From assembly GCA_037441725.1 (NCBI GenBank), contig JBBIRT010000002.1, positions 2,111 to 55,560 on the forward strand: 53,450 bases of DNA, read 5' to 3'. Positions 12,902 through 49,614 of the stretch are shown piece after piece (position 1 is the stretch's first letter; the number at the start of each line of letters is the position of its first letter). Under the pieces are notes generated by a model that worked only from the letters and a program-made list of their open reading frames with translations, did no database searches and was not told where the DNA came from. Origin of the DNA: Deltaproteobacteria bacterium. Its GTDB lineage: Bacteria > Desulfobacterota > BSN033 > UBA1163. The position numbers and the translations under genes were made by a program.

Positions 12902-12923
12902 ATTCCAATTCCCACCTTTAATT

Positions 12924-13075: not shown

Positions 13076-13087
13076 CTTAAATGGGCC

Positions 13088-13807: not shown

Positions 13808-13839
13808 ATTCTTGTACCTCTTTAATAAGGAGGAGTGAA

Positions 13840-15066
13840 ATGAAGGTAGACACCGGAGATACAGCGTGGATTTTCATCTCATCGGCCTTGGTGATGTTGA
13901 TGACCCCAGGGTTAGCCCTTTTCTATGGAGGGATGGTAAGGTCTAAAAATGTATTAGGAACAATCATGCAAAGCTTTATTGCTCTTGGGGTCATCACCAT
14001 TCAATGGGTTCTTTATGGATATAGTCTGGCTTTCGGCCCTGACATCGGACACGTAATCGGAGGTCTCAATTGGATTGGTCTCAGGGGCGTGGGGCTCGAA
14101 CCTTTCCCTGATTATTCTGCAACCGTACCCCATCAGGCCTTTATGATCTTTCAGATGATGTTTGCGGTAATTACCCCTGCTCTGATCACCGGGGCCATAG
14201 CGGAAAGATTTAAATTTAAAACCTATCTTGTCTTTCTCATCCTATGGGCCACTTTTGTCTACGACCCTCTGGCACACTGGGTCTGGGGAGTTGGGGGTTG
14301 GATCAGAAATCTTGGAGCCCTGGATTTTGCAGGAGGATTGGTTGTCCATGTCAGCTCAGGGGTGGCTGCATTGGCAGCCGCCTTAACGGTGGGAAAGAGG
14401 AAAGGTTATGGAGATGAACCGATGCCCCCCCACAATTTAACCATGACCCTTTTGGGTGCGGCCCTCCTCTGGTTCGGTTGGTTTGGATTTAATGGGGGAA
14501 GTGCAGTGGCCTCGGGTGGTCTTGCAACTAATGCCTTTGTGGTAACACATATCTCTACCGCTTCAGCAGCCCTCTCGTGGATGATGGTTGAATGGGCCTA
14601 TCGCGGGAATCCTACAGTTCTCGGGGCAGCATCAGGGGCAGTGGCTGGATTGGTTGCAATCACTCCTGCCTCAGGTTTTGTAGGACCTGTCTCCGCCATT
14701 CTCATTGGACTTGCTGCAGGTGTAGCCTGTTATTTTGCCATCAACCTAAAGAATAGACTGGGATATGACGATTCCCTCGATGTCGTTGGCGTACACGGAG
14801 TGGGCGGTACCTGGGGAGCACTGGCCACTGGCCTCTTTGCATCTAAGGCAATCAATCCTTCTGGGAATGATGGTCTATTTTTTGGCAATCTATCTCTGGT
14901 CGGAATTCAGGCCCTCAGTGTTATTTCTGCATGGATCTACTCTTTCACGGTCACTCTAATCATTTTAAAGATTCTTGATCTGACCATGGGATTGAGGGTC
15001 AGCGAGGAACATGAAATCAGTGGGCTCGATATTAGCCAGCATGGAGAAGCCGGTTACTCATTTTAA
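13840..15066 (+). CDS. amt: Ammonium transporter (Amt family), second copy
   Basis: ATG 13840 is preceded by AAGGAGG, whereas the ORF-track start 13804 lacks an RBS. Motifs [30 protein letters not shown]. Confidence 0.93.
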   Translation: MKVDTGDTAWIFISSALVMLMTPGLALFYGGMVRSKNVLGTIMQSFIALGVITIQWVLYGYSLAFGPDIGHVIGGLNWIGLRGVGLEPFPDYSATVPHQAFMIFQMMFAVITPALITGAIAERFKFKTYLVFLILWATFVYDPLAHWVWGVGGWIRNLGALDFAGGLVVHVSSGVAALAAALTVGKRKGYGDEPMPPHNLTMTLLGAALLWFGWFGFNGGSAVASGGLATNAFVVTHISTASAALSWMMVEWAYRGNPTVLGAASGAVAGLVAITPASGFVGPVSAILIGLAAGVACYFAINLKNRLGYDDSLDVVGVHGVGGTWGALATGLFASKAINPSGNDGLFFGNLSLVGIQALSVISAWIYSFTVTLIILKILDLTMGLRVSEEHEISGLDISQHGEAGYSF

Positions 15067-20246: not shown

Positions 20247-20279
20247 GGGGTGAAAGAAAAAGTTTAGGGGTTGATAAGA

Positions 20280-23200: not shown

Positions 23201-26200
23201 AGCCGTTCACCGCTTCCTGGTCTCAAGGAAAATCAGACATCGCTTTTCAATCCTTGCCTCTGGAGGTATCCGTTCTGCTGCAGATTCCCAGAAAACGATC
23301 CAGAGGGGGGCCAATGGAATCAAGATTGACTGGCCTGTCTTATTGGTGGCTGATTTCATGGCCCTAAAAAAATTCAGGCAGGGAGAAGTCATTATTCCCT
23401 TACATGATCGTTCAACCCTTATTAAAAGGTTGATCAATTTAATACGTGTTTGGAATATCCAGATCATCGAGGTCCTCGGAGCTTCTGGCTTTAAGGATAT
23501 TAAAAAAACGGTGGGTGAAGAAAATCGGCTCCTCATTTTCGACGATTTGGAAGAAAGGGTCTATGACATTTTCAAAAGTTCACCCCGACTCCAAAGAAAT
23601 AAACAATATAACCTGAAACGGATTCAAAGAGAAGGAGAATCCATTGGATGGCGATACAGCCAGTTAAAAGGATTGATTCAATCTGCCAAACACCCCCATC
23701 AATTTTATCACTGTCATCTCAATCCTGCTTGTTACCGGATCTTTGACCGAGATCATGTATGGCCTGCCTCTCTCATCGCTTCAGTGGGACGTATGGCCAG
23801 TGGGGATCGAAAGACCTTATTCCTTAACCAAACCGAGGAGCGTGGAAACTTAGGGGATGGTTTTGATTTCATTCATATTCAATTTCAACAAAATCCAGAT
23901 ACCCTCCCCGACGAGCGATTAGAGGAGGTCTCAACAGGTCTTCAAATCTCCCCTCAATTACGATTGAAAAGTCCTTTTATTGGGGCCGGAATGTCTGTAG
24001 GATCCGTTGGCCCCGGAACCTGGCGGGCTCGGGTACTGGCCACCCGGGCTCTGGGCACTCAAATGGATACCGGTGAAGGTGGGTATCCGACCTTTTTTAT
24101 TCTTGACTCAAAATGGAATCCTTTAGATCTCACTGATCAACAGGTCAATTGGCTAAGCCGTTTTATGGAAGAAAGAAAGCTTATCCCTATTGAATCATTG
24201 ATGAAACGACTTTCTCAAGAAGTTGAACCTACCCCTGAATATCAGACCCTTTTAGAAACCCTGAGGAAGTATCCTCCATCGATGACTGTTCAATATGTTC
24301 CTATTGTCACCCCTGAAGATGAACCTTTTGTCTCTACCCAATTAAAAACAGGACTCTTTGGAGTGACCAAAGAAACCATCCGTAGGGCTCGTCGGGTGGT
24401 GATTGCTTACAGCCAGGGAGCCAAACAGGGGGTAGGAGGACATTTATTGGGGAGGAAGGTCTTTGGCTTGGTCTCTCGGCTAAGGGGTGTGGCAGAAGGA
24501 GTAAGTCTTATCTCTCCATTTCCATTCCACAATTGTTATTCCATTGAAGATGTGAAGGCATTCATCGATGCCGTTCGTATGATCAACCTTAAAGCCACCA
24601 TCTGCATCAAGGTTTCACCCTCCCCTGACATTGAGTTCATTGTCTCAGGCCTTGCTCGTATTGCTAAAGACAATGACATGGTGATCGAGGTCTGGTTGGA
24701 TGGACCGCGTGGGGGGACAGGTGCAGCTCCTGACATCATCAAAGGTCAAATGGGAATGCATATGGAATATGCCATTCCCATCTGCCATGAAAAGTTGCTG
24801 GATGATGGATTAAGGGACTACGTCGTTTTTATGGGAAGTGGTGGGTTTCGAACCTGGGGAGATGTCATCAAGGGAATTGCCCTCGGATTGGATGGAGTCA
24901 TTCTTGGAACAGCCGATCTGGTGGCTATCGGTTGCGTGAGGGACCGAAACTGCGAGTCAGGGTGTCGAAGTGGCATTTCCACCATTGAACCTAAAATGCA
25001 ACTACTCAGAAATGTTGAACTGAATACCCAGCAGATCATTAACTTCCGTGCCCTTTTACAAGCCCAGACGATCCGAGCCCTCGCAGCCCTCGGGATGAAG
25101 GATATTCGAGAACTTCGTGGACGCTACGACTGTATCCAATGGTCTCTCCTCGAAGAGAGGGTTGAAAAGCGTCGTCGTCAGAGGAAGGAGCCATCCTGGG
25201 TTGAACCTGTCCCCAGCCTATCCTTGGAGCCTGCTCCTCCTTCAGATTGCGGGGTGGCGGCCATCGTATCCAATCATTTCATTCCAAGTCATGTCATGGA
25301 CCTGATGTTAGATCGAATGGCTAATCGGGGGATGGATGGGGTAGGAATCTGGAAAGGAGGATGTTACCCTAACCATTTAGAGGATTATGCCATCCATGTA
25401 TTGATTAAAGGCCCCCTCCAGACTCAGATTGAAGAAGAATATCAAAGTAGAGAACCTGATATCGATCCAGAAGAGATTCGACGTCAGGCAAGAAAAACGA
25501 TCCTGGACAGACGCCAACGAATCATGCGGGAGATTCTCAAGCAATATTTCAAAGGCCTTGATTTAAAAGATTTTGACGGCGATCTGGAAAAGAATCGAAT
25601 CCCCTATCGTCGAGATCAAGAAGGATCGGAGCAAGATTACCGAAGCTTTGGAGATAAAGATCCAGGGGATGTGTTTCGATTCTTTGTCCGGGTCAATCAG
25701 GATGAACTGAGTCGCTTCATTGAAAATGAGTTAATAAAAGATTCAATTTGGCCTCCCTGGCAGTTGCGTTATCAAGGTCTGAATCTCCAGAATTATAAAG
25801 AGAATAGAGAATTTCTCCAAGAGGCGGAGGATGAGTATATCTATCGGTTGGCTCGTCGGATCACCTTTGAAAACTATGTAAAGGACCAACAGAAAAAAGC
25901 GGCGGTTCTTTCTTGTGGAAAGAATTCGGGTTGCTGGAAAAGCGATGGCCGCCACCTTCCATGGGAGCTGCCTGATGCCCCTGTCAATATTATCCACCGA
26001 AGGTTGGCTACAGGTTCTGTAGTAGATCAAATGAACGCCCATCCCTTCTCAGAACTTCATACCGCTTTAACCCATAATGGAGAAACCACCAATTATCGGA
26101 CCATGCTCAATCGTGTGTCTCAATTCAACCTAACCCCATTAGCTCAAACCGACACGGCTGTTGCATCTCTCAAACTTCATCTACTCAGCCAGTACCTCCA

Positions 26201-27848
26201 CTATCCTTTTGATGCATTGGTTGAATCCTTTTCTCCCACCACTGGATGGAGCTTGACTCAGCTTCCCTCAGAAATGAGGGAGCGTTTTGAACGTATCCAG
26301 GAGGTAGAATTGGAAAGCGCCCCTGATGGGCCCTATCAATATCTCTGTGGACGTATCGATCCCTATCAAAGAGTAATTGAGCGTCTCGATATTATCGATC
26401 CTTCCTTGCTCAGGCCTAATGTGGCAATGCTCTATGATGATGGGGAAAATTTTGTAAGCATTATCTGCTCTGAGAAACAGGGGAGTGATGCAGGAATGCA
26501 GGAATTATTTCGATTGGGATTGATGAAGAGCACCATCTCCCCACTCATCTTTACCGTTAATCCCGGGATGCTAAGCAGGGTCTTCTATGATGAAAAAGGG
26601 AGGATTACAGGATATGAGGTGTTGGATAAATTCGGTAAGAAAATTGAGATCCCTCATGGAACCTTTCCTCCACAGAAGTCCCTCCCACTTGTGGAGGCTT
26701 CTGAGAGGATTGAATTTGAACCCAGTCCATCCCTCTTTATTAAAGATCGGCTGCCTCGCTGGAGTTTTCTGGAGTTTGAAAAGGCCTTAAAAGAATTATC
26801 GAGTAAGCTTCCTCCATCAAAGGCCATTGAGGAATTGACCTGGATTCATGATCATCTCATTGGCTGGGATACTGGAGACAAAGATAGAGGCGCTCTCATT
26901 CATACCGTAAAAAATGTGATCAACACTTTCTTAGATCATATAAGCCATAAAAAGGAATTTTTCAGGGTGACGATTGGAAAGGCAACCGAATTAAACCCCC
27001 CAGAAGACGGGGAACAGGTGTTAGTGGTCGATGCTCGTGGTTTTCGACCTGAGGGGATAGATCCCTTTAGGGTGCTAAGTCCTTTTCTCGATCATGCCCA
27101 TAAGATGGGTTGGAGGAAATTCATTGTCTACCGGGTAGAGGGTCAGCGAGGGATTGGTATGGGGATCGGTTCTGGCCAGACGAACGACACTCAGATCGAT
27201 GTTTACGGAAGCCCAGGTGAATATTGTGGTGCCTTCAATATGGGAGCCTTGGTACGGGTCCACACCCATTCACAGAACTTCACAGGGATGGTGATGCATT
27301 CAGGAACGTTAGAAATCCACGGAGATGTCGGCAAGGTCACTGGATACTCGGCCAAAGGAGGAACATTCAACATCCTCGGAAATGTTGTTGATCGTGGATG
27401 GGTCTGCGCGGTCAGTGATCCGAGAGGGCCTGGACTGGAGGTCAATATTGTGGGGACCGCTTATGAGCACCTCTGTCAGGCCTTCATGGGAGGTTCAGTA
27501 ATCATGCTGGGACTTTTTTGGGGACCGGATGGAATGCTCCATCGAATGCAGTCTCCCTATAAAGGTGGGAAAATCCTGGCCGGGGCCTCTGCAGGTGAGG
27601 TCATCTTCTATGATCCTGAGAAGAGATTAAACCAAGAGCAATATAAAAGTTGTGTTTCCAATCCCATGAATGGGAAAAAGTGGGGGGAAATTATGAACCG
27701 TCTGATGAATCTTGAAAAGATCTTTAGCCTCGGTTTTTCCAGAAAGAACGACCATCTCACGGTTAGAATGGATGGGGATTTTCAGAATCTCACCCCGGAC
27801 AAATTTCTATGGTTATTACCAAAAGGAGAATTGGAAGGGTACCATTAA
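20280..27848 (+). CDS. Giant multidomain glutamate-synthase-like fusion: FAD-linked oxidase + Fe-S modules + two GltS-type barrels + class II amidotransferase + GXGXG domain
   Basis: Single uninterrupted ORF (ATG 20280, or TTG 20271). Motifs in order: FAD PCMH-type (RGAGTWGYGG), CAQCGNCVTRCP/CLHCGRCDEEC, CLHCGTCVDAC/CRGCGACLERCP, a degenerate barrel (ASGGIRSAADS), then an FMN barrel (GAGMSVGSVG...DTGEGG, QGAKQGVGGHL, DGPRGGTGAAP, GSGGFRTWGDV, GCVRDRNCESGC). These are followed by GATase II (CGVAAIV, RGMDGVGIW, NAHPF, HNGETTNY) and a GXGXG region (GQRGIGMGIGSG ... GSPGEYCGAFNMG ... GDVGKVTGYSAKGG). Confidence 0.85.
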   Translation: MNQNRNHLTWKKYLEDFLQHHSDLKVIEDPEKLEYYRSDLNVDLPPLIRDLMLKSLPDLVLQPSTEEHILKIFDLARKHKIPLTIRGAGTWGYGGAVPTQGGILIDLNLMDKIEVNPETLELTVGPGARFHDIHQQLERYGLSLLSMTSGKGGTFIGWIATGGMGYGTFHYGPVEKQLISLRVISPDGRIREIKSEDPEIKYFLSTEGQMGIIVQATLKIGKQPSRWFPFLLPFETQASAYTLTQKLSHHPFIKPDDLMVYHNELVRMLKSQSNGKITIPDKNLMLVVFSREEKAQEFKTYLQENSIQPADEELAHYLWKERFVPMSIKPFGPSLLAVEVLLPIDQVAPYCEKISEWGKRLGVSLYPSSHLVSKDQVLFLAMITSDHRKTIFYIDLMLIPMMVRLAVQFYRGKPYGLGIWNTPFLHDLYSKEERKDLIQYKRKVDPLKILNPGKFFHVSGRLGPLQKILFHSDLFNLELASTQWLLLKLFSILPEKKFRKRIPIPPQGLEKIAYEVFSCAQCGNCVTRCPVYRATRDETFTARGKLLTMKRAIETQKIELSKVLPLYFCLHCGRCDEECQVSINHRQLYKDLEKYLSDRIDFPIREITDFVQEVEKSPEFYRFLDVIRTGFDQKIREQRQTFSKYRVRIDEEYCLHCGTCVDACMYSVRKRNDADPRQVIVVDESLCRGCGACLERCPQIAAGLPATSVELHPDYLSMDHPYWNSEVISRIDLEATTGKIPVSGTGQGDPHRGSGNDGIRFGHFHIVGPAQNLLYESSADAIAIHLGQRPKYLKFNGVEIETPPPRLVHLKTPLILDILPGNQNDELLDAMLEAASTMGTRVTLRWEEVKRFSSKIGNRLNTLILRLTLEDLKNILEGKEKVNLLKDSLFDLIEIEWEDSFLNHFNQLRSLFSESQVLCAVLKVKKEDVSPELQLSSEFQKRLELLSQSPFDVLCLSSDYDSDQGYYPTTDAVPAVHRFLVSRKIRHRFSILASGGIRSAADSQKTIQRGANGIKIDWPVLLVADFMALKKFRQGEVIIPLHDRSTLIKRLINLIRVWNIQIIEVLGASGFKDIKKTVGEENRLLIFDDLEERVYDIFKSSPRLQRNKQYNLKRIQREGESIGWRYSQLKGLIQSAKHPHQFYHCHLNPACYRIFDRDHVWPASLIASVGRMASGDRKTLFLNQTEERGNLGDGFDFIHIQFQQNPDTLPDERLEEVSTGLQISPQLRLKSPFIGAGMSVGSVGPGTWRARVLATRALGTQMDTGEGGYPTFFILDSKWNPLDLTDQQVNWLSRFMEERKLIPIESLMKRLSQEVEPTPEYQTLLETLRKYPPSMTVQYVPIVTPEDEPFVSTQLKTGLFGVTKETIRRARRVVIAYSQGAKQGVGGHLLGRKVFGLVSRLRGVAEGVSLISPFPFHNCYSIEDVKAFIDAVRMINLKATICIKVSPSPDIEFIVSGLARIAKDNDMVIEVWLDGPRGGTGAAPDIIKGQMGMHMEYAIPICHEKLLDDGLRDYVVFMGSGGFRTWGDVIKGIALGLDGVILGTADLVAIGCVRDRNCESGCRSGISTIEPKMQLLRNVELNTQQIINFRALLQAQTIRALAALGMKDIRELRGRYDCIQWSLLEERVEKRRRQRKEPSWVEPVPSLSLEPAPPSDCGVAAIVSNHFIPSHVMDLMLDRMANRGMDGVGIWKGGCYPNHLEDYAIHVLIKGPLQTQIEEEYQSREPDIDPEEIRRQARKTILDRRQRIMREILKQYFKGLDLKDFDGDLEKNRIPYRRDQEGSEQDYRSFGDKDPGDVFRFFVRVNQDELSRFIENELIKDSIWPPWQLRYQGLNLQNYKENREFLQEAEDEYIYRLARRITFENYVKDQQKKAAVLSCGKNSGCWKSDGRHLPWELPDAPVNIIHRRLATGSVVDQMNAHPFSELHTALTHNGETTNYRTMLNRVSQFNLTPLAQTDTAVASLKLHLLSQYLHYPFDALVESFSPTTGWSLTQLPSEMRERFERIQEVELESAPDGPYQYLCGRIDPYQRVIERLDIIDPSLLRPNVAMLYDDGENFVSIICSEKQGSDAGMQELFRLGLMKSTISPLIFTVNPGMLSRVFYDEKGRITGYEVLDKFGKKIEIPHGTFPPQKSLPLVEASERIEFEPSPSLFIKDRLPRWSFLEFEKALKELSSKLPPSKAIEELTWIHDHLIGWDTGDKDRGALIHTVKNVINTFLDHISHKKEFFRVTIGKATELNPPEDGEQVLVVDARGFRPEGIDPFRVLSPFLDHAHKMGWRKFIVYRVEGQRGIGMGIGSGQTNDTQIDVYGSPGEYCGAFNMGALVRVHTHSQNFTGMVMHSGTLEIHGDVGKVTGYSAKGGTFNILGNVVDRGWVCAVSDPRGPGLEVNIVGTAYEHLCQAFMGGSVIMLGLFWGPDGMLHRMQSPYKGGKILAGASAGEVIFYDPEKRLNQEQYKSCVSNPMNGKKWGEIMNRLMNLEKIFSLGFSRKNDHLTVRMDGDFQNLTPDKFLWLLPKGELEGYH

Positions 27849-42040: not shown

Positions 42041-42054
42041 TTGACTTAAGTCAA
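42041..42054. promoter_or_regulatory. FNR/FixK/DNR-type box TTGACTTAAGTCAA (TTGA-N6-TCAA)
   Basis: Perfect 14-bp palindrome. Its centre is 29.5 nt upstream of a consensus TATAAT (42077-82), which is class II (-41.5) geometry for the 42147 gene. Confidence 0.6.
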
Positions 42055-42146
42055 AGAAAATCTAAGGGTAATGGGATATAATAAAAATAAATGAATCAAT
42101 GGAGGAAGAATCCTCAAATCAAATGAAAAGGGAGGTTTGAACAACA

Positions 42147-42590
42147 ATGACCCACGAATACGCTGGAAAGTATGCTTTGAAACATCCACCCGGTACAAGG
42201 CCGAATGAAGGGATTGCCAAGGTGGTCAGAGAAAGGTCTTCGGGCGGCGAACTCGCTTGTGGAATGGCTGAAAGGATTGCAAAAGAGCTTAATGTTAGTA
42301 TCTCGGAGGTGGGGCTGACCGCCGATTTACTGGAGATAAAAATCAAAAAATGTCAGCTTGGCCTCTTTGGCTGGGGAAATAAACCAAACCATGGCAAGGA
42401 CATCCATCTGGCCGATTCTGTCCCCTTTGAGATGAAGCGTGCCCTTGATGGAGTTACCGAAAAGGGCAGGGTAACCTGTGCTTCGGTTTGGGCGATTGCT
42501 GATCGTCTTGGCATAGAGCGAAAGGTGGTTTCTACTGCCTGTGAAACTTTAGGATTAAAGATCATAAGGTGCCAGCTCGGTACATTCTAA
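42147..42590 (+). CDS. Hypothetical protein with an internal tandem duplication, each half ending in C-QLG-x-F
   Basis: 147 aa. ACGMAERIAKELNVSISEVGLTADLLEIKIKKCQLGLF aligns with CASVWAIADRLGIERKVVSTACETLGLKIIRCQLGTF. Strong RBS GGGAGG. Confidence 0.7.
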   Translation: MTHEYAGKYALKHPPGTRPNEGIAKVVRERSSGGELACGMAERIAKELNVSISEVGLTADLLEIKIKKCQLGLFGWGNKPNHGKDIHLADSVPFEMKRALDGVTEKGRVTCASVWAIADRLGIERKVVSTACETLGLKIIRCQLGTF

Positions 42591-42661: not shown

Positions 42662-43705
42662 TTAACGTTTGGGTAACCCAATTGCACTGAGATAGAATAA
42701 TAGCCTTAGTAAAAAATTATTTCTTGAGATTGATTGAGTAATCCAGATCATTCTTCTGACCGTTTTCCTTGAGACCTTCATATCGCCAACTGGCTTATAA
42801 CTTCTTCTCCATATATTCCTTAGGGTAAACATAGCCAATCCAATAGCCCACAGACAGAACTTACGTATCCCTGTCTCTTTTTCAGGGAGAAGGAGTGTAT
42901 AGGTCAGGCCGTTTTTAAGATGTTCATAAGTAATGGCTATGAATTGAGCCACTCCTTTTTTAAATGAATCACAGTCGTATATTTGAGATAGATCTTTTAA
43001 ATAAAATCCACATCTCTCAAAAATATCCCTCGGTAACCAGCAGACCCCACGATCGAAATCCTTCCAAAGATCCTTTAAAATGTTTGTCATCTGCAGACCC
43101 TGACCAAAAGAGACTGCCAGCTTGTTGAGGGTCTCTCTTTTTTGTGCTATCTCCGATGAGTATTCACAAAAAAGATCCGTTAAAAATTCTCCAACAACTC
43201 CAGCTACGTAATAACAGTAATCGTTTAATTCGAATAAGTCCTTAAGGCCTTGATGTTTCTTCCGCAGCTCAAATGCCTCCATCCCTGTACACATCAGCGT
43301 GATGGACCTTTTGAGACCTTCATACTCTCTTGGGTTAAGCTCACGGGTAATACGAATAATCCTTTCGATGTTTTGGATGAGGTTTTTCTCAGGCAAAACA
43401 GTAAGGTTTGAGAGCAGGGGAGCCAACTCGGCTTTAAGAGCTTCAGGGGATGAATGGTCAGAAATGACTTCAACCAATCTGTTGAAGAATTTTCTCTTTT
43501 GATCTATCGTAAATGTATTCTCATCCTCGATCGTATCGGCAATTCTAAATAATAAATAGGCATTTGCGACAACGTTCCGAAGAGTCCCTGGTAACTGAGG
43601 GATGGTAAAGGCGAATGAGCGAGAAACCCCATTAAGTAACTGATGCTGAAAATCAATATCATTGAGTTCTTTATCAGAAGCCAATACCTCTCCCCTAATC
43701 TTCAT
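42662..43705 (-). CDS. Squalene/phytoene synthase family enzyme, eukaryote-type squalene synthase-like
   Basis: First Asp-rich motif YLLFRIADTIEDE (cf. LRALDTVEDD) and second region GQGLQMTNILKDLWKD (cf. LQKTNIIRDYLED). Confidence 0.8.
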   Translation of the reverse strand: MKIRGEVLASDKELNDIDFQHQLLNGVSRSFAFTIPQLPGTLRNVVANAYLLFRIADTIEDENTFTIDQKRKFFNRLVEVISDHSSPEALKAELAPLLSNLTVLPEKNLIQNIERIIRITRELNPREYEGLKRSITLMCTGMEAFELRKKHQGLKDLFELNDYCYYVAGVVGEFLTDLFCEYSSEIAQKRETLNKLAVSFGQGLQMTNILKDLWKDFDRGVCWLPRDIFERCGFYLKDLSQIYDCDSFKKGVAQFIAITYEHLKNGLTYTLLLPEKETGIRKFCLWAIGLAMFTLRNIWRRSYKPVGDMKVSRKTVRRMIWITQSISRNNFLLRLLFYLSAIGLPKR

Positions 43706-43724: not shown

Positions 43725-44852
43725 TTATGAAACTTCCTCAGTAGGTTGATAGAGACAGTCAGGCTCTGCAGCAAGGTAATCGCCTGTGACAGCAAATGCA
43801 CGAGCCCTGGAGCCTCCACAGACTTTTCGAAATTCACATCGACCACATTTCCCTTTTAAGGCGTCTGGATTCCGTAAGGCTTTGAAGATTGGAGATTCCT
43901 GATATATCGAAACAATTGAATCCTGAGGGAACCTCCCTGCCTCTATAGGAAGAAAACCACTTGGGAAAATCTGCCCGGTATGGCTGATAAACATACAGCC
44001 ATTCCCATCATTGAGACCAAGGGGACCTCTCTGTATGGGTATAGAGGGGCCCGTTAATTTATTAAATTCTGTTTGGGGATTCCCACCCCTTTGAAGAACA
44101 AATCTCCTGTAATGGGGGGCCTCTGTAGTCTTAATGCTGTAATTCTTTGTCTTCGTATGTTGCCAAAGGAAGCCAAAGATCTCTTCATATTGAGCAGGTT
44201 CAATCCTTTCCTCACTCATCCCTCGACCAATGGGAATGAGAAAGAATACCGACCACAGAGTGATAGGGAAGGAAGAAATAAATTCGGCAATCTCATTAAT
44301 CTGACTAACATTTCGCCTTGAGATAGTGGTATTAATCTGAATCGGAAGACCGATCTGATAAGCACTTTTCACCAAATCTATTGTTTTATCGAAACTTCCA
44401 GAAATTCCACGAATCCCATCGTGGGTCAATGCATCCGCTCCATCCAGTGAAAAAGCAATCCGTTTAAGACCAACCTTTTTAAGCTGTTGAAGGGCTTGGT
44501 CATGAAGGAGAGGGGTTACTGAAGGGGTCATAGCTACCGATAGCCCTGCCTGAGTGGCCCAACGAACAATATCAAAGACATCATCTCTTTTCATTGGGTC
44601 CCCACCGGTCAGGATCAAAGTTGGCTTAAGAGGAAATTGGTTCAGTTGATTAATCAACTCATGACAAAGAGCTCCTTCGATCTCCTCAGGATGGCGATCG
44701 GGTTGGGCTGAGGCCCGGCAGTGCTTGCAAATAAGATCGCAAGCCTGGGTGATCTCCCAAAATACAATAAAAGGACTGTGACGAAAGTCAGATCTATTGT
44801 ATTCTGAAGAGGCCATTGATTTGAGACGCTCATTTGGTTTGGTTCCCTTCAT
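43725..44852 (-). CDS. Radical SAM enzyme with C-terminal SPASM-type auxiliary-cluster domain
   Basis: CDLICKHCRA (CxxxCxxC), GGDPM glycine-rich motif, C-terminal CGRCEFRKVCGGSRARA. RBS AAGGAG. Confidence 0.85.
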   Translation of the reverse strand: MKGTKPNERLKSMASSEYNRSDFRHSPFIVFWEITQACDLICKHCRASAQPDRHPEEIEGALCHELINQLNQFPLKPTLILTGGDPMKRDDVFDIVRWATQAGLSVAMTPSVTPLLHDQALQQLKKVGLKRIAFSLDGADALTHDGIRGISGSFDKTIDLVKSAYQIGLPIQINTTISRRNVSQINEIAEFISSFPITLWSVFFLIPIGRGMSEERIEPAQYEEIFGFLWQHTKTKNYSIKTTEAPHYRRFVLQRGGNPQTEFNKLTGPSIPIQRGPLGLNDGNGCMFISHTGQIFPSGFLPIEAGRFPQDSIVSIYQESPIFKALRNPDALKGKCGRCEFRKVCGGSRARAFAVTGDYLAAEPDCLYQPTEEVS

Positions 44853-44954: not shown

Positions 44955-44978
44955 TTCCTTGACTTACGTCAAGGAAAT
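44955..44978. promoter_or_regulatory. Extended FNR/FixK/DNR-type box TTTCCTTGAC-TTAC-GTCAAGGAAA
   Basis: Perfect 10-bp arms with core TTGA-N6-TCAA at 44959-72. The centre is 29.5 nt from a minus-strand TATCTT, giving class II geometry for the radical SAM operon. Confidence 0.55.
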
Positions 44979-45064: not shown

Positions 45065-45078
45065 TTGATTTAAGTCAA
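45065..45078. promoter_or_regulatory. FNR/FixK/DNR-type box TTGATTTAAGTCAA
   Basis: TTGA-N6-TCAA core. The centre is 29.5 nt upstream of TATGTT (45101-06) on the + strand, giving class II geometry for the RIC-like operon. Confidence 0.55.
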
Positions 45079-45179: not shown

Positions 45180-46070
45180 GTGATTGGAATGGAACAAAGC
45201 AGGGCGGAAGCTGTTTATTCATTTATAAAAAGATTGAAAAACGATGAATATGAAAGAGGGAGAGAAATGGATCAATATCTCAACACCCCCATTAAGGAGC
45301 TGATTACAAAATTCCCTAAGGTGGGGGAGATCTTGGAGGAATATGAAATTGGTTGTGTCCCTTGTCATGTAGGGTCCTGTCTGCTAAAAGATATTATAGA
45401 AGTTCATAATTTGTCAGAGAAGGAAGAAAAGGAGGTGATGGTTAGGATTTCAAAAATAATCGATCCGGATAAGGTGATTTCTATCCCGGTTGTGGAAAGG
45501 AAGTCCAAGATTAAGTCCAGGGAGATCCACTATTCTCCTCCAATGAGGAAGTTAGTAGACGAACACGCCTTGATTAAAAGATGGATTGCTTTAATTCCAG
45601 AAATTCTTAAGCATTTGGAGGTAGAATTAGAGGGAGGCCTATGGGTGATTTATGATGGCGCTGATTTCATCCGTTCGTATGCAGATCGATTCCACCATGC
45701 CAAAGAAGAGGATATCCTTTTTGAATATTTCGATAGAAACTTGGACATCATCAAAACCATGCTTGAAGATCATGAAAAAGGACGGACTCATGTAAAAGCC
45801 TTGATCGAATCTGCGGATAAGAAGGACATCATGGGTATTTCTCAACACCTTTTAGCCTATCATGATCTTCTCAGCGAACATATCAAGAAAGAGGATGAGA
45901 TTCTTTACCCCTGGATGGATAGAAACCTTTCGATGACTCAAGTGGGTCAGCTTTATTCCAGGTTTAACGAAGTGGACGAGAGAAGTGATATAACTGAGAA
46001 ATACAAGAAATTCATTCTTAATTTAGAAGAAAAATATCAAAGAAAGGAGATAAAAAATGAGAGCATTTGA
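45180..46070 (+). CDS. RIC/YtfE-like protein: CxxC (ScdA_N/DUF1858-type) domain + hemerythrin-like di-iron domain
   Basis: TPIKELITKFPKVGEILEEYEIGCVPCHVGSC, then HHE-type motifs (FHHAKEEDILFEYF, HEKGRTH, HIKKEDEILYPWM). The likely true start is ATG 45267 (RBS GAGGGAG). Confidence 0.75.
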   Translation: MIGMEQSRAEAVYSFIKRLKNDEYERGREMDQYLNTPIKELITKFPKVGEILEEYEIGCVPCHVGSCLLKDIIEVHNLSEKEEKEVMVRISKIIDPDKVISIPVVERKSKIKSREIHYSPPMRKLVDEHALIKRWIALIPEILKHLEVELEGGLWVIYDGADFIRSYADRFHHAKEEDILFEYFDRNLDIIKTMLEDHEKGRTHVKALIESADKKDIMGISQHLLAYHDLLSEHIKKEDEILYPWMDRNLSMTQVGQLYSRFNEVDERSDITEKYKKFILNLEEKYQRKEIKNESI

Positions 46071-46527
46071 AGGTTGCCCAAGTTCAAGAACGATTGATTT
46101 CAGAGAGGAAGGGACCAAAGAAGAAAGCCCCGCCGCAAAGGTGAAATCTGAACTTCGACAATGGCCAATCCAACTTCACTTGATCTCTCCGACAGCTCCT
46201 TATTATCAGGGAACGGATGTATTGTTAACGGCTGACTGTGTAGCCTATGCGATGGGAAGCTTCCATCCAGATTATTTAAAAGGAAAATCGATTGCCATTG
46301 CTTGCCCAAAGCTGGATGAGGGTCAAGAGGTCTATGTGGAAAAAATTAAATCTTGGTTTGGAGAGGCAAAGATCAATACCCTGACGGTATTGACCATGCA
46401 AGTCCCATGCTGCATGGGATTAGTCCATTTGGCCAAAGAAGCCCTGATCAATTCGAAGAGAAAGGTTCCATTGAAGTCCATTGTGGTTAGTCTACAGGGA
46501 GAGATCCTTTCAGAGGAATGGGTATAG
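46057..46527 (+). CDS. Conserved Cys-rich protein (resembles the C-terminal module of ferredoxin-domain proteins seen next to hcp/CODH genes)
   Basis: 156 aa with LRQWPIQLHL, LTADCVAYA, IACPKLDEG, MQVPCCMGL. RBS AAGGAG. 14-nt overlap with the upstream gene. Function unknown. Confidence 0.6.
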   Translation: MRAFEGCPSSRTIDFREEGTKEESPAAKVKSELRQWPIQLHLISPTAPYYQGTDVLLTADCVAYAMGSFHPDYLKGKSIAIACPKLDEGQEVYVEKIKSWFGEAKINTLTVLTMQVPCCMGLVHLAKEALINSKRKVPLKSIVVSLQGEILSEEWV

Positions 46528-46614
46528 AAATCTAATGATTCTTATTAAGTTCTGGTGAATCGTAAGGGAATGGAACAGGGAGGATGAGGGGACCTTAGAA
46601 AGGGAGAATATGGT

Positions 46615-48921
46615 ATGGCTGAACTAAAAGAAATAAACCAGAGATTAGAAGAGATTTATCAGAAGATAAAGGCTGATATTCCATGGGAACCTGTTGGACA
46701 TACCCCGATGCCCGAAACCTCTGATCTCAGGAATTGGGATAGGAGGCTTTTACAAACCTATAAACCCTGGTATGCCCCTTTCTGTGATCTTTGTTGCTTT
46801 TGTACCTACGGAAAATGTGATCTCACTGAGAATAGAAGAGGGGCTTGTGGAATCGATATAGCAACCCAGCAAGGGAGGTGGATGCTTCTCTTCTGTGTCA
46901 TGGGGGCCTCAGCACACACCTCTCATGCTGCCCATATCCTTGACGTACTGATCAAGAAGCATGGACCGGACAAGAGGATTAATTTAGGGAGTTTTGTTGA
47001 TTTAGAAGCGCCTCATATTAGAACCGTTCTGGGATTGAAACCAGAAACCCTCGGTGATTTAAGGATCGCAATTGAATACATCTACAAAGAGATTACCCAC
47101 CTGATCGACTCGACAGCATTCGGTCAGGAGGGAAATCCACTGGATTTTGAATCCAAAGCTCTTCATGCAGGAATGCTTGACCATGTTGGGATGGAAGTAG
47201 CTGACATTGCCCAGATCGTTGGCTTTAACTATCCCACTTCTATTGCGGATACGCCTCTCGTCGATCTCGGATGGGCATCCGTGGATAAGACCAAGCCCAT
47301 TATCTGTTTTGTAGGACATAATCCTGCGACTTCCACCGTTGTGGTCGATTACCTCCAGGAAAATAATCTCTACGACAGGATTGAGCTGTGTGGAATTTGC
47401 TGCACTGCCCTGGAGACCAGCAGATACACATCCAGGATGAGAGTGGTCGGTCCTTTTTCACGTCAGCTTTTCTACATAAGGAGTGGAATTGCAGATGTCA
47501 TTATCACTGATGAACAGTGCATGAGGACGGATATGGTTCAAGAGGCGACAAAGGCTGGCTCTGCCCTCATTGCTACACTCGATAAGGTGATGTATGGCCT
47601 TGAGGATGCAACAGAGAAGGCAACCGATGAAATCCTCAAGGAGATGGTGGAGAAGAAGAAACATTTCGCGATCCTTGATCCCAAAAAGGCTGCTGAGGTA
47701 GCCGTCAAGGTAGCCATCGCCATTGCTCCCCATCGGAGGAAACAATGGATCCTGGACGAGGAGGCACAGGAATTATCAAAAAGATGTAACTTGTGCGGAA
47801 TGTGTGAAACTGCTTGCCCAAATCTCTTTGAGATTGGTCAGGGGATAAGCGAGGTGGCCAAAGGGAACTATGAAGTGATCAAGGATCAATTTAACTATTG
47901 TATTGGTTGTGGAAAATGTGAGGAGGAATGTCCAAGACAGATTCCAATCCTGAAGATCATGCAGGTCGGAGCGAGTAAAGAAACCTATAAGATCAGGGCT
48001 GGCCGTGGCCCAATTATGGATACAGAGATAAGAACAGTTGGAGCCCCAATAACGCTTGGCACCATTCCCGGTGTGGTGGCACTCGTGGGATGTTCAAGCT
48101 ATCCCGATATACGGGACCTTGCTGAAATAGTAGATGAATTTGCAAGAAGAAAATATATCATCTTAGTCTCTGGCTGCACCTCCATGGCGGTTGGGATGTG
48201 GAAGGATGCCGAGGGGAAAACGATCTACGAAAAGTATCCTCCTGTTTTTGATGCTGGAGGCGTTGTGAATGTTGGGGCCTGTGTCGCAAACAGCCACATC
48301 TCTGGAGCGGCTATAAAGATTGCCAATCTATTTGGAACTTTACCCTTAAGAGGAAATTATGAAGTTATTGCAGACTATGTGCTGAATCGAGTCGGGGCAG
48401 TGGGGATCGCTTGGGGGATCTATTCCCAGAAGGCAGAAGCTATCGCATCAGGATTCAATCGATTAGGAGTGCCTGTTATTCTTGGGCCCCATTCCTCTAA
48501 GTATCGACGGCTCTACTTATCAAGGAAAGAGGAGGATGAATGGAAGGTAATGGATGCAAGGAAAAAACAGATCGTTGAAACTGAAGAGCCTTCCCCCGAG
48601 CACCTCGCCTATGTCTGTGAGACAAAGGAAAAGGTCATGGTGATGATTCCGAAGCTCTGTATTCGAAAGAATGACACTCCCCAGGGAAGGGCAATCAAGC
48701 TTAATCATTATATCTCCCTTTATAAGAGATACATGGGAGGAGGTCTCCCCGAAGACCTTCACCTCTATGTTCGGAGGGAGGCAGATATTCCGCTCGTTTA
48801 TAAGAAAGAGGTCAAGGCTTATTTTGCAGAGATAGGCTGGAAACCAAAGGAACCAGTTGGGCTTCCCACTCTTATTGGTACTTATCCAACAAAGGTCCCA
48901 GTAGAATCCGTCATTCATTAA
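46615..48921 (+). CDS. Ni-dependent CO dehydrogenase catalytic subunit, CdhA (archaeal ACDS alpha) type
   Basis: 768 aa. FCDLCCFCTYGKCDL...RGACGID, SKALHAGMLDHVGMEVADIAQ, DKTKPIICFVGHN, CGICCTA, DEQC, inserted 2x[4Fe-4S] (CNLCGMCETACP, CIGCGKCEEECPRQIPIL). Also VSGCTSMAVGMWKD, GACVANSHISGAA, LNRVGAVGIAWG, LGPHSSKYRR. All match my recollection of CdhA. Confidence 0.85.
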   Translation: MAELKEINQRLEEIYQKIKADIPWEPVGHTPMPETSDLRNWDRRLLQTYKPWYAPFCDLCCFCTYGKCDLTENRRGACGIDIATQQGRWMLLFCVMGASAHTSHAAHILDVLIKKHGPDKRINLGSFVDLEAPHIRTVLGLKPETLGDLRIAIEYIYKEITHLIDSTAFGQEGNPLDFESKALHAGMLDHVGMEVADIAQIVGFNYPTSIADTPLVDLGWASVDKTKPIICFVGHNPATSTVVVDYLQENNLYDRIELCGICCTALETSRYTSRMRVVGPFSRQLFYIRSGIADVIITDEQCMRTDMVQEATKAGSALIATLDKVMYGLEDATEKATDEILKEMVEKKKHFAILDPKKAAEVAVKVAIAIAPHRRKQWILDEEAQELSKRCNLCGMCETACPNLFEIGQGISEVAKGNYEVIKDQFNYCIGCGKCEEECPRQIPILKIMQVGASKETYKIRAGRGPIMDTEIRTVGAPITLGTIPGVVALVGCSSYPDIRDLAEIVDEFARRKYIILVSGCTSMAVGMWKDAEGKTIYEKYPPVFDAGGVVNVGACVANSHISGAAIKIANLFGTLPLRGNYEVIADYVLNRVGAVGIAWGIYSQKAEAIASGFNRLGVPVILGPHSSKYRRLYLSRKEEDEWKVMDARKKQIVETEEPSPEHLAYVCETKEKVMVMIPKLCIRKNDTPQGRAIKLNHYISLYKRYMGGGLPEDLHLYVRREADIPLVYKKEVKAYFAEIGWKPKEPVGLPTLIGTYPTKVPVESVIH

Positions 48922-49188
48922 TAAAAGGGGGTCAAAGAAGGAGGGATAGACACCATCCTTATAGATACTTCAATATGTCCATATCAGATAAATAATTATT
49001 GCAAAAGAATAAAGGAAAGATGTAAGCCTTTAAAAGAAGGTTGTGTCCTTTATGGTAAAATGGAGACCCTTGGTTCTAAAGAGGAAATAGAGAAGTGGCA
49101 TATGAAAAAAAATATACGGGGAAGTATGAATAAAAGTCCATTGGAGAAGGGATATTCGTCGCATATGTGCTGAAAGAAAGGGAGTGAG

Positions 49189-49614
49189 ATGAGGGGAGAA
49201 GGACATCAGTTTAATCAATATAGCCAGAAGGTGATTGACCACTTTACAAATCCACGAAATGTTGGGGAGATTGAAGACGCTGATGGGATTGGAGAAGTAG
49301 GAAATCCCGTGTGTGGGGATATGATGCAGCTATTTATTAAGGTCAGGGATGGAAAGATTGCGGATGCAAAATTTAAGACCTTTGGGTGCTGTGCTGCCAT
49401 TGCCACAAGCAGTATGATGACAGAATTGATTAAAGGGAGGACCCTATCCGATCTAAAAGAGATCACCAATAAGGTAGTCACCGAAGCTCTGGATGGTCTA
49501 CCGAAAGTAAAACTTCACTGCTCGGTTTTGGCAGAGGATGCCCTAAAGGCTGCCCTAAAAGATTATTATCAGAAAAAGGGGGAGGAAGAGAATGGAGTAG
49601 AACCTTCTATTTAG
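49189..49614 (+). CDS. iscU: IscU/NifU-N-type Fe-S cluster scaffold
   Basis: 141 aa. NPRNVG, GNPVCGD, FGCCAAIATSS, LHCSVLAEDALKAA. RBS AAGGGAG. Confidence 0.9.
   Translation: MRGEGHQFNQYSQKVIDHFTNPRNVGEIEDADGIGEVGNPVCGDMMQLFIKVRDGKIADAKFKTFGCCAAIATSSMMTELIKGRTLSDLKEITNKVVTEALDGLPKVKLHCSVLAEDALKAALKDYYQKKGEEENGVEPSI

What the first reader, a model, noticed from the sequence alone, without database searches (positions are those of the whole stretch)
45180..49614. Orphan CdhA-type Ni-CO dehydrogenase embedded in an hcp-like, nitrosative-stress-type operon
The 768-aa protein has the hallmarks of the archaeal ACDS alpha subunit: the N-terminal CDLCCFCTYGKCDL cluster motif, an inserted 2x[4Fe-4S] domain, and C-cluster-region motifs GHN, GICCTA, DEQC, SGC, GACVANSH. 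None of its usual partners (epsilon subunit CdhB, ACS, corrinoid proteins, CooC/CooF) is nearby. Its operon partners are instead those typical of hybrid-cluster-protein loci. These are a RIC/YtfE-like CxxC-plus-hemerythrin protein, a small Cys-rich protein of a family I associate with hcp/CODH neighbourhoods, and an IscU scaffold, all behind an FNR/DNR-type box. HCP and CODH are homologous. This context suggests the CdhA-like enzyme may act in NO/hydroxylamine or oxidative-stress chemistry, or be a stress-repaired stand-alone CODH, rather than in acetyl-CoA metabolism.
Basis: partly seen in the sequence, partly recalled or inferred. Interest (0 to 1): 0.75.

Follow-up and report, generated by a model that had tools for sequence, protein, structure and literature searches.

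The report
Stress-operon copy of CO dehydrogenase
An extra, intact copy of the nickel CO-dehydrogenase subunit that normally works inside the acetyl-CoA synthase machine has been moved, in one group of uncultured anaerobic bacteria, into a nitric-oxide-stress-type operon, in the position where other microbes carry the related hybrid cluster protein, so it probably has a job outside normal acetyl-CoA metabolism.

Summary
Window 45180-49614 encodes four + strand genes:
- a hemerythrin protein with an N-terminal Cys-rich domain
- a 156-aa AF_0155-family Cys protein
- a 768-aa CdhA (TIGR00314, 1027 bits; every cluster ligand kept)
- an IscU scaffold

No cdhB/C/D/E or cooC lies anywhere in the 53 kb. 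Three HcpR-type boxes (TTGAYN4RTCAA) are the only ones in the window, and all sit in this locus.

This CdhA belongs to a small monophyletic paralog clade (10 distinct sequences). The clade is nested inside Syntrophaceae-type CdhA genes, which sit in complete CODH/ACS operons. One related MAG carries both a full operon and the orphan copy.

The conserved core is the hemerythrin + AF_0155 pair. The slot just downstream of that pair holds CdhA in this lineage and a genuine HCP in others; in one locus a CooS follows two genes further on.

The orphans are under strong purifying selection. They carry clade-specific replacements next to C-cluster cysteines and around the Phe that gates the CO channel toward ACS.

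My best reading is a stress-induced CO dehydrogenase that works without ACS. A spare alpha subunit for the ACDS complex remains a serious rival. HCP-like chemistry is possible but unsupported. I class it as a new variant of a known kind.

The parts
42041..42054 (.). HcpR-type palindromic box 3 (TTGACTTAAGTCAA), 93 bp upstream of the 147-aa ORF
   Evidence: one of only 3 matches to TTGAYNNNNRTCAA in the window. Motif as in PMC1274295.
42147..42590 (+). 147-aa protein of unknown family: tandem duplication of the 'p85' domain that accompanies NifU and AF_0155 in related loci. Probable member of the same regulon.
   Evidence: tblastn similarity (about 33%) to the p85 / p85x2 proteins of L116, L110, L152, L100 and L103. 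No Pfam or NCBIfam hit. Box upstream.
42662..43705 (-). Squalene/phytoene-synthase-family gene. It is a synteny anchor that flanks the module in the window, L005, L089 and L095. A functional link is not shown.
   Evidence: PF00494, 162 bits; conserved divergent neighbour.
43725..44852 (-). Radical SAM/SPASM protein (TIGR04053 family, AhbD/NirJ-like), transcribed divergently from the box-bearing intergenic region
   Evidence: 448 bits, cutoff 395. A 79%-identical homolog lies inside the operon region in L012.
44959..44972 (.). HcpR-type box 1 (TTGACTTACGTCAA), 107 bp upstream of the radical-SAM start
   Evidence: Equivalent paired boxes precede the operon in L005, L012, L089, L094, L104, L111, L112, L118, L121 and L124.
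45065..45078 (.). HcpR-type box 2 (TTGATTTAAGTCAA), about 110 bp upstream of the first operon gene
45180..46070 (+). Di-iron hemerythrin-domain protein with an N-terminal Cys-rich (GCVPCHVGSC) DUF1858-like domain. It has RIC-like architecture but is not a RIC family member. It is the conserved partner of AF_0155.
   Evidence: (invariant C56, C59, C64 and H/E ligands). It lies immediately upstream of AF_0155 in 44 of 54 loci.
46057..46527 (+). AF_0155-family (PF27217) small alpha/beta protein with invariant C7, C61, C83, C118 (C119 nearly invariant) and H70. Presumed metal or Fe-S protein.
   Evidence: 4792 relatives; the top 120 are 74-85% identical; AF2 pLDDT 66.6; no PDB fold match.
46615..48921 (+). 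CdhA paralog (clade A Ni-CODH, all B/C/D/E/F cluster ligands kept) without an epsilon subunit or ACS
49189..49614 (+). IscU/NifU-type Fe-S scaffold. It follows cdhA after a 267-bp gap with no convincing terminator.
   Evidence: (TIGR03419, 202 bits). An IscU 86-88% identical sits in the CdhA-bearing block of L005, L012, L102 and L105.

Best explanation
The locus is a stress operon controlled by an HcpR-type regulator (CRP/FNR family, without the FNR cysteines).

Its ancient, widely distributed core is a translationally coupled pair: a hemerythrin di-iron protein and the Cys-rich AF_0155 protein. Fe-S and sulfur-trafficking genes usually accompany the pair: IscU here, and NifU, NifS, TusA and DsrE in relatives.

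In one Syntrophaceae-like lineage, a duplicate of the ACDS alpha-subunit gene was inserted directly downstream of AF_0155. In other lineages a hybrid cluster protein gene occupies that slot.

The duplicate keeps a complete Ni-Fe-S C-cluster and all electron-transfer clusters, and it is strongly constrained. It has lost its epsilon and ACS neighbours. It has acquired fixed second-shell changes beside C-cluster cysteines and around the Phe that gates the CO channel at the ACS docking face.

I infer that it works as an ACS-independent CO/CO2 oxidoreductase made under NO or oxidative stress. It would scavenge CO and feed low-potential electrons, through its E/F clusters and possibly AF_0155, to repair and detoxification reactions. 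The co-expressed Fe-S machinery would build and rebuild its five clusters.

Shown: gene identities, conserved synteny, conserved boxes, paralogy, selection, and the substitution pattern.
Inferred: the NO signal, independence from ACS, the direction of catalysis, and the electron route.
For: - **Identity and intact ligands:**
- **No partners in 53 kb:**
- **Monophyletic orphan clade:** 10 distinct sequences, nested in operon-type Syntrophaceae CdhA, with longer branches.
- **Coexistence with a full operon:** the same MAG carries both, on contigs of similar coverage (4.0x and 4.4x).
- **Purifying selection:** dN/dS is 0.02-0.04 among orphans, and synonymous sites are saturated against operon copies, so there is no sign of gene conversion.
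- **Slot equivalence:** the gene immediately after AF_0155 is CdhA in 8 of 36 loci with enough downstream sequence, and HCP in 3 (plus L172). In one further locus a CooS follows two genes downstream.
- **Boxes:** the 3 boxes in the window all lie in this locus. They are conserved in relatives and match the HcpR motif. The neighbouring regulator in L005 and L111 lacks the FNR cysteines and has an S-E-T-L/F-S-R recognition helix, as described for that HcpR branch.
- **Clade-specific replacements at positions otherwise 96-100% conserved in 186 operon-type sequences:** I303M (+1 of Cys302), N495S (+2 of Cys493), V517L (-4 of Cys521), S555A/P (-1 of the Ni-ligand Cys556), and I572L/A574G/A575T flanking Phe573. 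By the alignment, Phe573 is MetCODH Phe601, the CO-alcove and channel choke residue at the ACS interface (PMC11474084).
- **Precedents:** cooS is induced by NO in D. desulfuricans (PMC5701242). CODH-IV is an O2-tolerant isoform within the same organism (cited in PMC13056359).
Against: - Of 320 positions that are at least 98% conserved in operon-type CdhA, 293 are unchanged in every orphan. This includes 47 of 49 in the C-terminal extension that contacts ACS. So the surfaces for epsilon and ACS may still work.
- No Ni-insertion gene (cooC) is in the operon.
- The source of CO under stress is unexplained.
- The signal (NO versus O2) is inferred from motif and neighbours only.
- The window holds no regulator gene.
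- The rest of this genome could not be retrieved.
Confidence: 0.42

Rival explanations
1. It is a spare or alternative alpha subunit. Under nitrosative or oxidative stress the cell makes a tuned CdhA isoform, together with Fe-S assembly proteins. This isoform assembles with CdhB, CdhC, CdhD and CdhE from the canonical operon, so that damaged CODH is replaced and the Wood-Ljungdahl pathway keeps running.
For: - It is 85-88% identical and the same length as operon copies, with all ligands kept.
- Of 320 near-invariant positions, 293 are retained, including nearly all of the ACS-contacting C-terminal extension and Arg473 (MetCODH Arg500).
- A full operon supplying epsilon, ACS, CFeSP and CooC exists in the one related MAG where both loci are visible.
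- The operon has no cooC or cdhB of its own.
- In L103 versus L005, cdhA comes and goes as one block with the Fe-S and sulfur-trafficking genes.
Against: - Three fixed changes flank the Phe that forms the CO alcove against the A-cluster.
- cdhA always sits just after AF_0155, in the slot that holds HCP in other lineages.
- The C-terminal extension is somewhat more variable in orphans than in operon copies (25.8% against 16.4% variable positions).
- No epsilon gene travels with it, although other stand-alone loci (L072, L021) do keep cdhB.
Confidence: 0.28
2. It is a functional replacement for HCP. The Ni-CODH scaffold is used here to reduce NO, hydroxylamine or N2O, with AF_0155 as electron donor.
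For: - It occupies the same operon slot as HCP, behind the same partner pair.
- The boxes and neighbours are of HcpR-regulon type.
- CODH C-cluster variants gain hydroxylamine reductase activity (Heo 2002 and Inoue 2013, as cited in PMC6344411).
- There are second-shell changes right next to the Ni-binding Cys.
Against: - All first-shell Ni-C-cluster ligands and the Lys/His acid-base residues are kept.
- No change toward the Glu ligands of the hybrid cluster is seen (ligand equivalences are from my own knowledge of the HCP and CODH structures).
- A CooS with its own CooC occurs near an AF_0155 domain in L127, which points to ordinary CODH chemistry in such modules.
Confidence: 0.12
3. It is a sensor or regulator rather than a metabolic enzyme, as proposed for the lone CdhA3 of Methanosarcina acetivorans (a CO sensor that tunes expression of the ACDS isoforms).
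For: There is a precedent for a lone clade A cdhA without cdhB (Matschiavelli 2012, as summarised in PMC4652020, and PMC13056359). A canonical operon coexists in the same MAG.
Against: - Constraint is very strong on the whole 768-aa protein, including the E/F clusters.
- It is co-transcribed with repair and assembly genes, not with regulators.
- No DNA- or RNA-binding partner is present in the operon.
Confidence: 0.08
4. The juxtaposition is accidental: a duplicated cdhA landed next to unrelated stress genes and is not functionally tied to them.
For: The arrangement is confined to one lineage. Operon content around cdhA varies: IscU only in the window, p149 only in L089, and a 7-gene block in L005.
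Against: The AF_0155-cdhA adjacency is kept across three subclades whose synonymous sites are saturated. The intergenic gaps are short, the upstream boxes are conserved, and an independent HCP occupies the same slot in other lineages.
Confidence: 0.05

Closest known systems
Bacterial 'archaeal-type' CODH/ACS operon CdhA (Syntrophaceae / Thermodesulfobacteriota and Dehalococcoidia; ACDS alpha subunit, Ni-CODH clade A, group A-1)
   Same: 85-88% identical to the nearest operon copies and the same 768-aa length. All B, C, D, E and F cluster ligands are kept. TIGR00314 scores above its cutoff, and the protein is 60%-range similar to solved ACDS alpha subunits.
   Different: - No cdhB, cdhC, cdhD, cdhE or cooC neighbours.
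- It sits after hemerythrin + AF_0155 and behind HcpR-type boxes.
- It has fixed substitutions next to C-cluster cysteines and around the channel-gating Phe573.
HcpR regulon: hcp with frdX/hcr, plus RIC (YtfE/DnrN), for nitrosative-stress defence
   Same: - The same operator consensus (wyTTGACnnnnGTCAArw).
- Hemerythrin- and ferredoxin-like members.
- A Cys-less CRP/FNR regulator nearby in relatives.
- HCP itself follows the same hemerythrin + AF_0155 pair in L137, L132, L122 and L172.
   Different: The catalytic gene here is a Ni-CODH (CdhA), not an HCP. The hemerythrin protein fails the RIC family thresholds. No hcp and no regulator gene lie in the window.
Carboxydothermus hydrogenoformans CODH-IV (stress-linked, O2-tolerant monofunctional CODH), and the NO-induced cooS of Desulfovibrio desulfuricans
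   Same: Each is a Ni-CODH isoform tied to stress rather than to carbon fixation, in an organism that has other CODHs (PMC13056359; PMC5701242).
   Different: Those are CooS-type enzymes (clades E/F) without E/F clusters, and they have different partners (for example rubrerythrin; my own knowledge). Here the enzyme is a clade A CdhA with hemerythrin, AF_0155 and IscU partners.
Methanosarcina acetivorans CdhA3 (lone CdhA isoform)
   Same: A clade A cdhA without cdhB or ACS genes, in a genome that also has complete cdh operons.
   Different: - It is archaeal.
- It was proposed as a CO sensor or regulator.
- No link to a stress operon, hemerythrin or AF_0155 has been reported.
- Its relationship to this clade was not tested here.

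Membership tests
CdhA / ACDS alpha subunit (TIGR00314; Ni-CODH clade A) | Full-length match to the curated family model above its cutoff | tested here: met
   1027.2 bits against a cutoff of 781.3, covering residues 2-746.
CdhA / ACDS alpha subunit (TIGR00314; Ni-CODH clade A) | C-cluster ligands (His, 5 Cys) and acid/base Lys/His; B/D-cluster Cys motif; two CX2CX2CX3CP motifs for the E/F clusters | tested here: met
   H235, C263, C302, C493, C521, C556, K606, H101/H104, C57-C78, and the ferredoxin insert at 389-443. All align with 8riu/9c0q.
CdhA / ACDS alpha subunit (TIGR00314; Ni-CODH clade A) | Encoded with the epsilon subunit (cdhB) and the ACS/CFeSP genes | tested here: not met
   no tblastn hit to CdhB, CdhC, CdhD, CdhE or CooC anywhere in the window. 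75 of the 80 genome loci show cdhB after cdhA; of the other five, three contigs end first (L025, L029, L074), one has cdhB about 3 kb further on (L043), and one is the orphan-type L012.
CdhA / ACDS alpha subunit (TIGR00314; Ni-CODH clade A) | Physical membership of the ACDS complex; CO/CO2 activity | not testable with these tools
   Needs protein biochemistry.
Hybrid cluster protein (TIGR01703 / NF003658) | Match to the HCP family model | tested here: not met
   no HCP model is among the best 25 families listed for this protein (11 further weaker hits were not shown). A real HCP from L137 scores 823 bits.
Hybrid cluster protein (TIGR01703 / NF003658) | Glu ligands of the hybrid cluster | tested here: not met
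   Cys is kept at positions 263 and 556, where HCP has Glu (the equivalence is from my own knowledge).
RIC / YtfE / ScdA / DnrN (TIGR03652, NF008221) | Match above the family cutoff | tested here: not met
   24.3 bits (cutoff 254) and 17.7 bits (cutoff 204.7).
RIC / YtfE / ScdA / DnrN (TIGR03652, NF008221) | C-terminal di-iron hemerythrin-like domain | tested here: met
   PF01814, 41.8 bits (cutoff 25.3). Invariant His/Glu columns in the family alignment. YtfE is the only solved relative found by profile search, with E 7e-4 over one helix pair.
RIC / YtfE / ScdA / DnrN (TIGR03652, NF008221) | N-terminal ScdA_N-type domain and overall YtfE fold | tested here: inconclusive
   DUF1858 scores 19.9 bits (cutoff 32.2) and TIGR03980 scores 22.5 bits (cutoff 44.95). 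The AF2 model (pLDDT 82) has 3CAX, not YtfE, as its best Foldseek match, at E 0.028.
IscU / NifU-type scaffold (TIGR03419) | Match above cutoff | tested here: met
   202 bits (cutoff 187.9). PF01592 scores 166.7 bits.
AF_0155 family (PF27217) | Family assignment | tested here: met
   the 100%-identical P0121 and all 120 listed relatives carry the precomputed PF27217 label. The local Pfam copy has no such model.
HcpR regulon (Rodionov et al. 2005) | Operator wyTTGACnnnnGTCAArw upstream of the genes | tested here: met
   3 sites in the window, all in this locus. They are conserved in relatives.
HcpR regulon (Rodionov et al. 2005) | Cognate Cys-less CRP/FNR regulator with Ser/Pro and Glu at the two specificity positions | tested here: inconclusive
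   No such gene lies in the window. In L005 and L111 a neighbouring regulator has one N-terminal Cys only, and the recognition helices SETLSR / CETFSR.
HcpR regulon (Rodionov et al. 2005) | Induction by nitrite or NO | not testable with these tools
   Needs expression data.
Lone CdhA of the M. acetivorans CdhA3 type | Orthology with CdhA3 | not tested
The orphan clade is nested in bacterial Syntrophaceae CdhA, so an independent origin is likely.

The most novel reading that the evidence does not exclude
[quoted passage not shown] On this reading, a natural Ni-Fe-S C-cluster enzyme reduces NO, hydroxylamine or N2O during nitrosative stress. AF_0155 would be a dedicated redox partner shared by HCP, CooS and CdhA enzymes.
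Probability: 0.12. Interest if true: 0.85.

Novelty: new variant of a known kind. Interest (0 to 1): 0.6.

Why it matters
Clade A Ni-CODHs are regarded as almost exclusively Wood-Ljungdahl enzymes. A 2026 survey found C1-pathway genes in 93% of their operons, and found that clade A, unlike the other clades, does not co-occur with HCP (PMC13056359).

Here a clade A enzyme has been duplicated and recruited into an HcpR-type stress regulon, in the same slot that HCP fills elsewhere. It differs from its operon parent by only a handful of fixed substitutions, and these cluster around the active site and the CO-channel gate.

That makes a natural, minimal-difference pair for several questions:
- What makes a CODH tolerant to NO or O2?
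- What couples or uncouples CODH from ACS?
- Do CODH and HCP, which are homologous, overlap in physiological role?

It also points to the very widespread, cross-domain hemerythrin + AF_0155 pair as an uncharacterised stress module that partners with prismane-superfamily enzymes.

Tried and rejected
- **AF_0155 as a divergent epsilon subunit (CdhB):** hhalign probability 0.2%. Rejected.
- **AF_0155 fold assignment:** the AF2 model has pLDDT 66.6, and the best PDB match has E 0.0097 and TM 0.29-0.41 (KaiC, beta-carbonic anhydrase). There is no usable match. A PDB sequence-profile search also found nothing.
- **The hemerythrin protein as a true RIC:** family cutoffs are not met, and Foldseek does not return YtfE.
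- **Gene conversion between the orphan and operon copies of one MAG:** they are 85.4% identical at the amino-acid level and dS is saturated. No sign of it.
- **Retrieving the window's own contig or genome to look for a canonical cdh operon:** the exact-sequence look-ups failed, and cluster records carry no accession or organism name.
- **Terminator or promoter between cdhA and iscU:** the consensus scans are at background level.
- **Mapping the alpha-epsilon interface:** the Gong 2008 paper is not held, and no coordinates or multimer prediction were available.
- **Heme-copper oxidase in L005 as NorB:** it shows only weak ccoN-like similarity, so I do not call it an NO reductase.
- **Relaxation of the ACS-contacting C-terminal extension:** only a weak trend, contradicted by the retention of its invariant positions.
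Full report
**1. What is in the window**

Window 45180-49614 carries four + strand ORFs at exactly the reported coordinates.

| Coordinates | Size | Identity | Evidence |
|---|---|---|---|
| 45180-46070 | 296 aa | Hemerythrin-domain protein with N-terminal Cys-rich segment | PF01814 41.8 bits (cutoff 25.3) |
| 46057-46527 | 156 aa | AF_0155 family (PF27217) | 100% identical to P0121 |
| 46615-48921 | 768 aa | CdhA | TIGR00314 1027 bits (cutoff 781) |
| 49189-49614 | 141 aa | IscU/NifU scaffold | TIGR03419 202 bits (cutoff 187.9) |

- The likelier start of the first gene is the ATG at 45189.
- Its N-terminal segment (GCVPCHVGSC) gives only sub-threshold hits to DUF1858 and to TIGR03980, the 'hybrid cluster protein-associated redox disulfide domain'. 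It is far below the RIC/YtfE cutoffs (24 bits against 254).
- The second gene overlaps the first by 14 nt. My local Pfam copy has no AF_0155 model.
- CdhA also scores 211 bits on Pfam Prismane and has a 2x[4Fe-4S] insert.
- CdhA aligns over its whole length with solved ACDS alpha subunits (8riu_A 795 bits; 9c0q, 3cf4). All the quoted motifs are conserved.
- tblastn with CdhB, CdhC, CdhD, two CdhE-like proteins and CooC taken from related operons finds nothing anywhere in the 53 kb.
- The remaining large ORFs encode ammonium transporters, GlnD-like and GlnA proteins, carbamoyl-phosphate synthase, sigma-54 activators, a D-Ala-D-Ala carboxypeptidase and similar functions.

**2. Regulatory boxes**

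- The pattern TTGAYNNNNRTCAA occurs only three times in the window, against 0.57 expected by chance.
- All three lie in this locus. Two (44959 and 45065) sit in the intergenic region between a divergent radical-SAM gene and the operon.
- The third (42041) sits ahead of a 147-aa ORF of unknown family.
- The same box, mostly TTGACTTAAGTCAA and usually in two copies, precedes the orthologous operons in many related contigs.
- It matches the motif wyTTGACnnnnGTCAArw derived for HcpR in non-Desulfovibrio deltaproteobacteria. That regulon comprises hcp, frdX, hemerythrin- and ferredoxin-like genes, dnrN and norB (PMC1274295).
- In relatives L005 and L111, a CRP/FNR-family gene lies nearby. It lacks the FNR cysteine cluster, and its recognition helix has Ser or Cys followed by Glu, as described for that HcpR branch.
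- In L005, further boxes precede an HD-domain gene, a heme-copper-oxidase/cytochrome c cluster and a YgbA_NO gene.

**3. Where this CdhA comes from**

- Its relatives are extremely conserved: 76-91% identity among the best 120 clusters, nearly all exactly 768 aa.
- A scan of species-representative genomes returned 80 loci from Syntrophaceae / Thermodesulfobacteriota and Dehalococcoidia MAGs.
- In 75 of the 80, cdhA is followed by cdhB. Most of these show the full CdhE-CdhE-CdhA-CdhB-CdhC-CdhD...CooC order.
- Of the other five, three contigs end before cdhB, one (L043) has cdhB about 3 kb downstream, and one (L012) is of the orphan type.
- The orphan arrangement appears in the window, in P0001's contigs (L005-L008) and in L012. 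It also appears in metagenome contigs L089/L097, L099, L100-L102, L105, L108 and L114, whose CdhA is 90-93% identical to the window's.
- The 10 distinct orphan sequences form one clade, nested within the Syntrophaceae operon-type clade and on longer branches.
- MAG JBBIOI01 has both a complete operon (L009) and an orphan locus (L012), on contigs of similar coverage. The two CdhA proteins are 85.4% identical.
- So the gene is a lineage-specific paralog. At least in that relative, the canonical gene set has its own alpha subunit.

**4. The conserved core is not CdhA**

- AF_0155 has 4792 relatives, and the best 120 are still 74-85% identical. They include one from the bathyarchaeon Ca. Hecatella orcuttiae.
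- Among 80 distinct loci, the hemerythrin protein lies immediately upstream of AF_0155 in 44 of the 54 with enough upstream sequence.
- Frequent companions are a NifU C-terminal-type protein, DUF2249, a second hemerythrin, DsrE, TusA, NifS, an HD/Zn-ribbon protein and a CRP-family regulator.
- The gene immediately after AF_0155 is CdhA in 8 of the 36 loci with enough downstream sequence.
- It is a genuine HCP in 3 (L137, L132, L122; NF003658 823 bits). L172 has an HCP after a small ferredoxin gene.
- In L127, a ferredoxin-fused AF_0155 domain is followed by HD, CooC and a CooS (TIGR01702 666 bits).
- This sample is biased toward close relatives of the window's protein. Even so, it shows that an AF_0155 domain recurs close to three branches of the prismane superfamily.
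- L103 is colinear with L005 at 86-96% nucleotide identity. It lacks exactly the 5.4-kb CdhA-DUF2249-hemerythrin-DsrE-TusA-IscU-NifS block. So cdhA and the Fe-S genes behave as one accessory unit.

**5. Is the paralog functional, and is it different?**

- dN/dS among orphans is 0.02-0.04, with no indels.
- Of 320 positions that are at least 98% conserved in 186 operon-type sequences, 293 are unchanged in all orphans.
- The clade-diagnostic changes are few but pointed:

| Change | Location |
|---|---|
| A93F | near the His101/His104 helix |
| M297I, I303M | around Cys302 |
| N495S | +2 of Cys493 |
| V517L | -4 of Cys521 |
| S555A/P | -1 of the Ni-ligand Cys556 |
| I572L, A574G, A575T | flanking Phe573 |

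- Using the alignment to 9c0q, Phe573 corresponds to MetCODH Phe601. With Leu504 and Val507, that residue forms the CO alcove over the ACS A-cluster and the choke point that closes the CO channel when ACS is absent (PMC11474084).
- Arg473 (MetCODH Arg500) and the helix alphaA positions are unchanged.
- Fixed differences are most frequent in Rossmann fold 2 (7 of 15), which is otherwise among the least variable domains.

**6. Interpretation**

- What cannot be decided from sequence is the chemistry.
- I favour an ACS-independent CO/CO2 enzyme made under stress (0.42). The reasons are the slot it shares with HCP, the lack of an epsilon subunit, the remodelling at the channel gate and second shell, and the precedents of NO-induced cooS and stress-linked CODH-IV.
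- A spare alpha subunit for the ACDS complex is a strong rival (0.28), because nearly all invariant surface positions survive and a canonical operon coexists in one relative.
- HCP-like N-oxide reduction (0.12) is the most novel reading. It is not excluded, but no ligand change supports it.
- A CdhA3-like sensor role (0.08) and chance juxtaposition (0.05) are less likely.

**7. Limits**

- The rest of this genome could not be retrieved.
- No coordinates or multimer predictions were available to test the epsilon and ACS interfaces.
- The fold of AF_0155 has no solved match. It is not a divergent CdhB.
- The hemerythrin protein resembles YtfE only weakly.

Noticed in passing
window 42041-42590: A 147-aa ORF with no Pfam or NCBIfam hit is a tandem duplication of a small 'p85' domain (Cys ... 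CQLGxF motif). That domain sits between NifU and AF_0155, or right after AF_0155, in many related loci. The ORF has its own HcpR-type box 93 bp upstream. It looks like an uncharacterised member of the same regulon.
   Followed up: partly
L072 (6072-8963) and L021 (7361-10282): This is a second kind of stand-alone clade A locus. CdhA-CdhB has no ACS genes and is preceded by a PAS/sigma-54 activator, a NUBPL-type ParA ATPase and two Nitro_FeMo-Co (NifX-like) proteins. L072 is in the same MAG (CAZXMB01) as the full operon L015.
   Followed up: partly
L103 8507-8533 versus L005 9970-15368: A related contig from the same sample is colinear with L005 but lacks exactly the 5.4-kb CdhA-DUF2249-hemerythrin-DsrE-TusA-IscU-NifS block. 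AF_0155 abuts the 149-aa membrane protein instead. The block is an accessory indel in the population.
   Followed up: yes
L127 52-4386: A 287-aa protein fuses a 2x[4Fe-4S] ferredoxin domain to an AF_0155 domain. It is followed by an HD/Zn-ribbon protein, a CooC-like ATPase and a CooS-type CODH (TIGR01702, 666 bits). This is an independent AF_0155-CODH association.
   Followed up: partly
L091-L093 6198-7468 (Ca. Hecatella orcuttiae, Bathyarchaeota): The hemerythrin + AF_0155 pair occurs in an archaeon, with AF_0155 78% identical to the bacterial protein. There it lies beside a RACo-like corrinoid activase, a URO-D-family protein and DUF2114. The identity level suggests cross-domain transfer of a very constrained module.
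   Followed up: no
window 43725-44852 (- strand); L012 about 12796-13900 (- strand): A TIGR04053-family radical SAM/SPASM protein (nearest named relatives are heme b synthase AhbD and NirJ) shares the box-bearing intergenic region in the window. A 79%-identical homolog lies within the operon region of L012.
   Followed up: no
L005 15889-22307: Next to the operon lie a multiheme cytochrome, DUF364, a divergent heme-copper-oxidase subunit I (only weak ccoN similarity), a c-type cytochrome, an HD protein, the CRP-family regulator and a YgbA_NO gene. Further HcpR-type boxes sit at about 20146, 20374 and 22156. Whether the oxidase reduces NO or O2 is open.
   Followed up: partly
window 1-40000: The upstream 40 kb is a nitrogen-assimilation neighbourhood. 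It holds two ammonium transporters, a GlnD-like protein, glutamine synthetase, an unexamined 2525-aa ORF (20271-27848), carbamoyl-phosphate synthase, GAF histidine kinase and sigma-54 activators. It holds no one-carbon pathway genes.
   Followed up: partly
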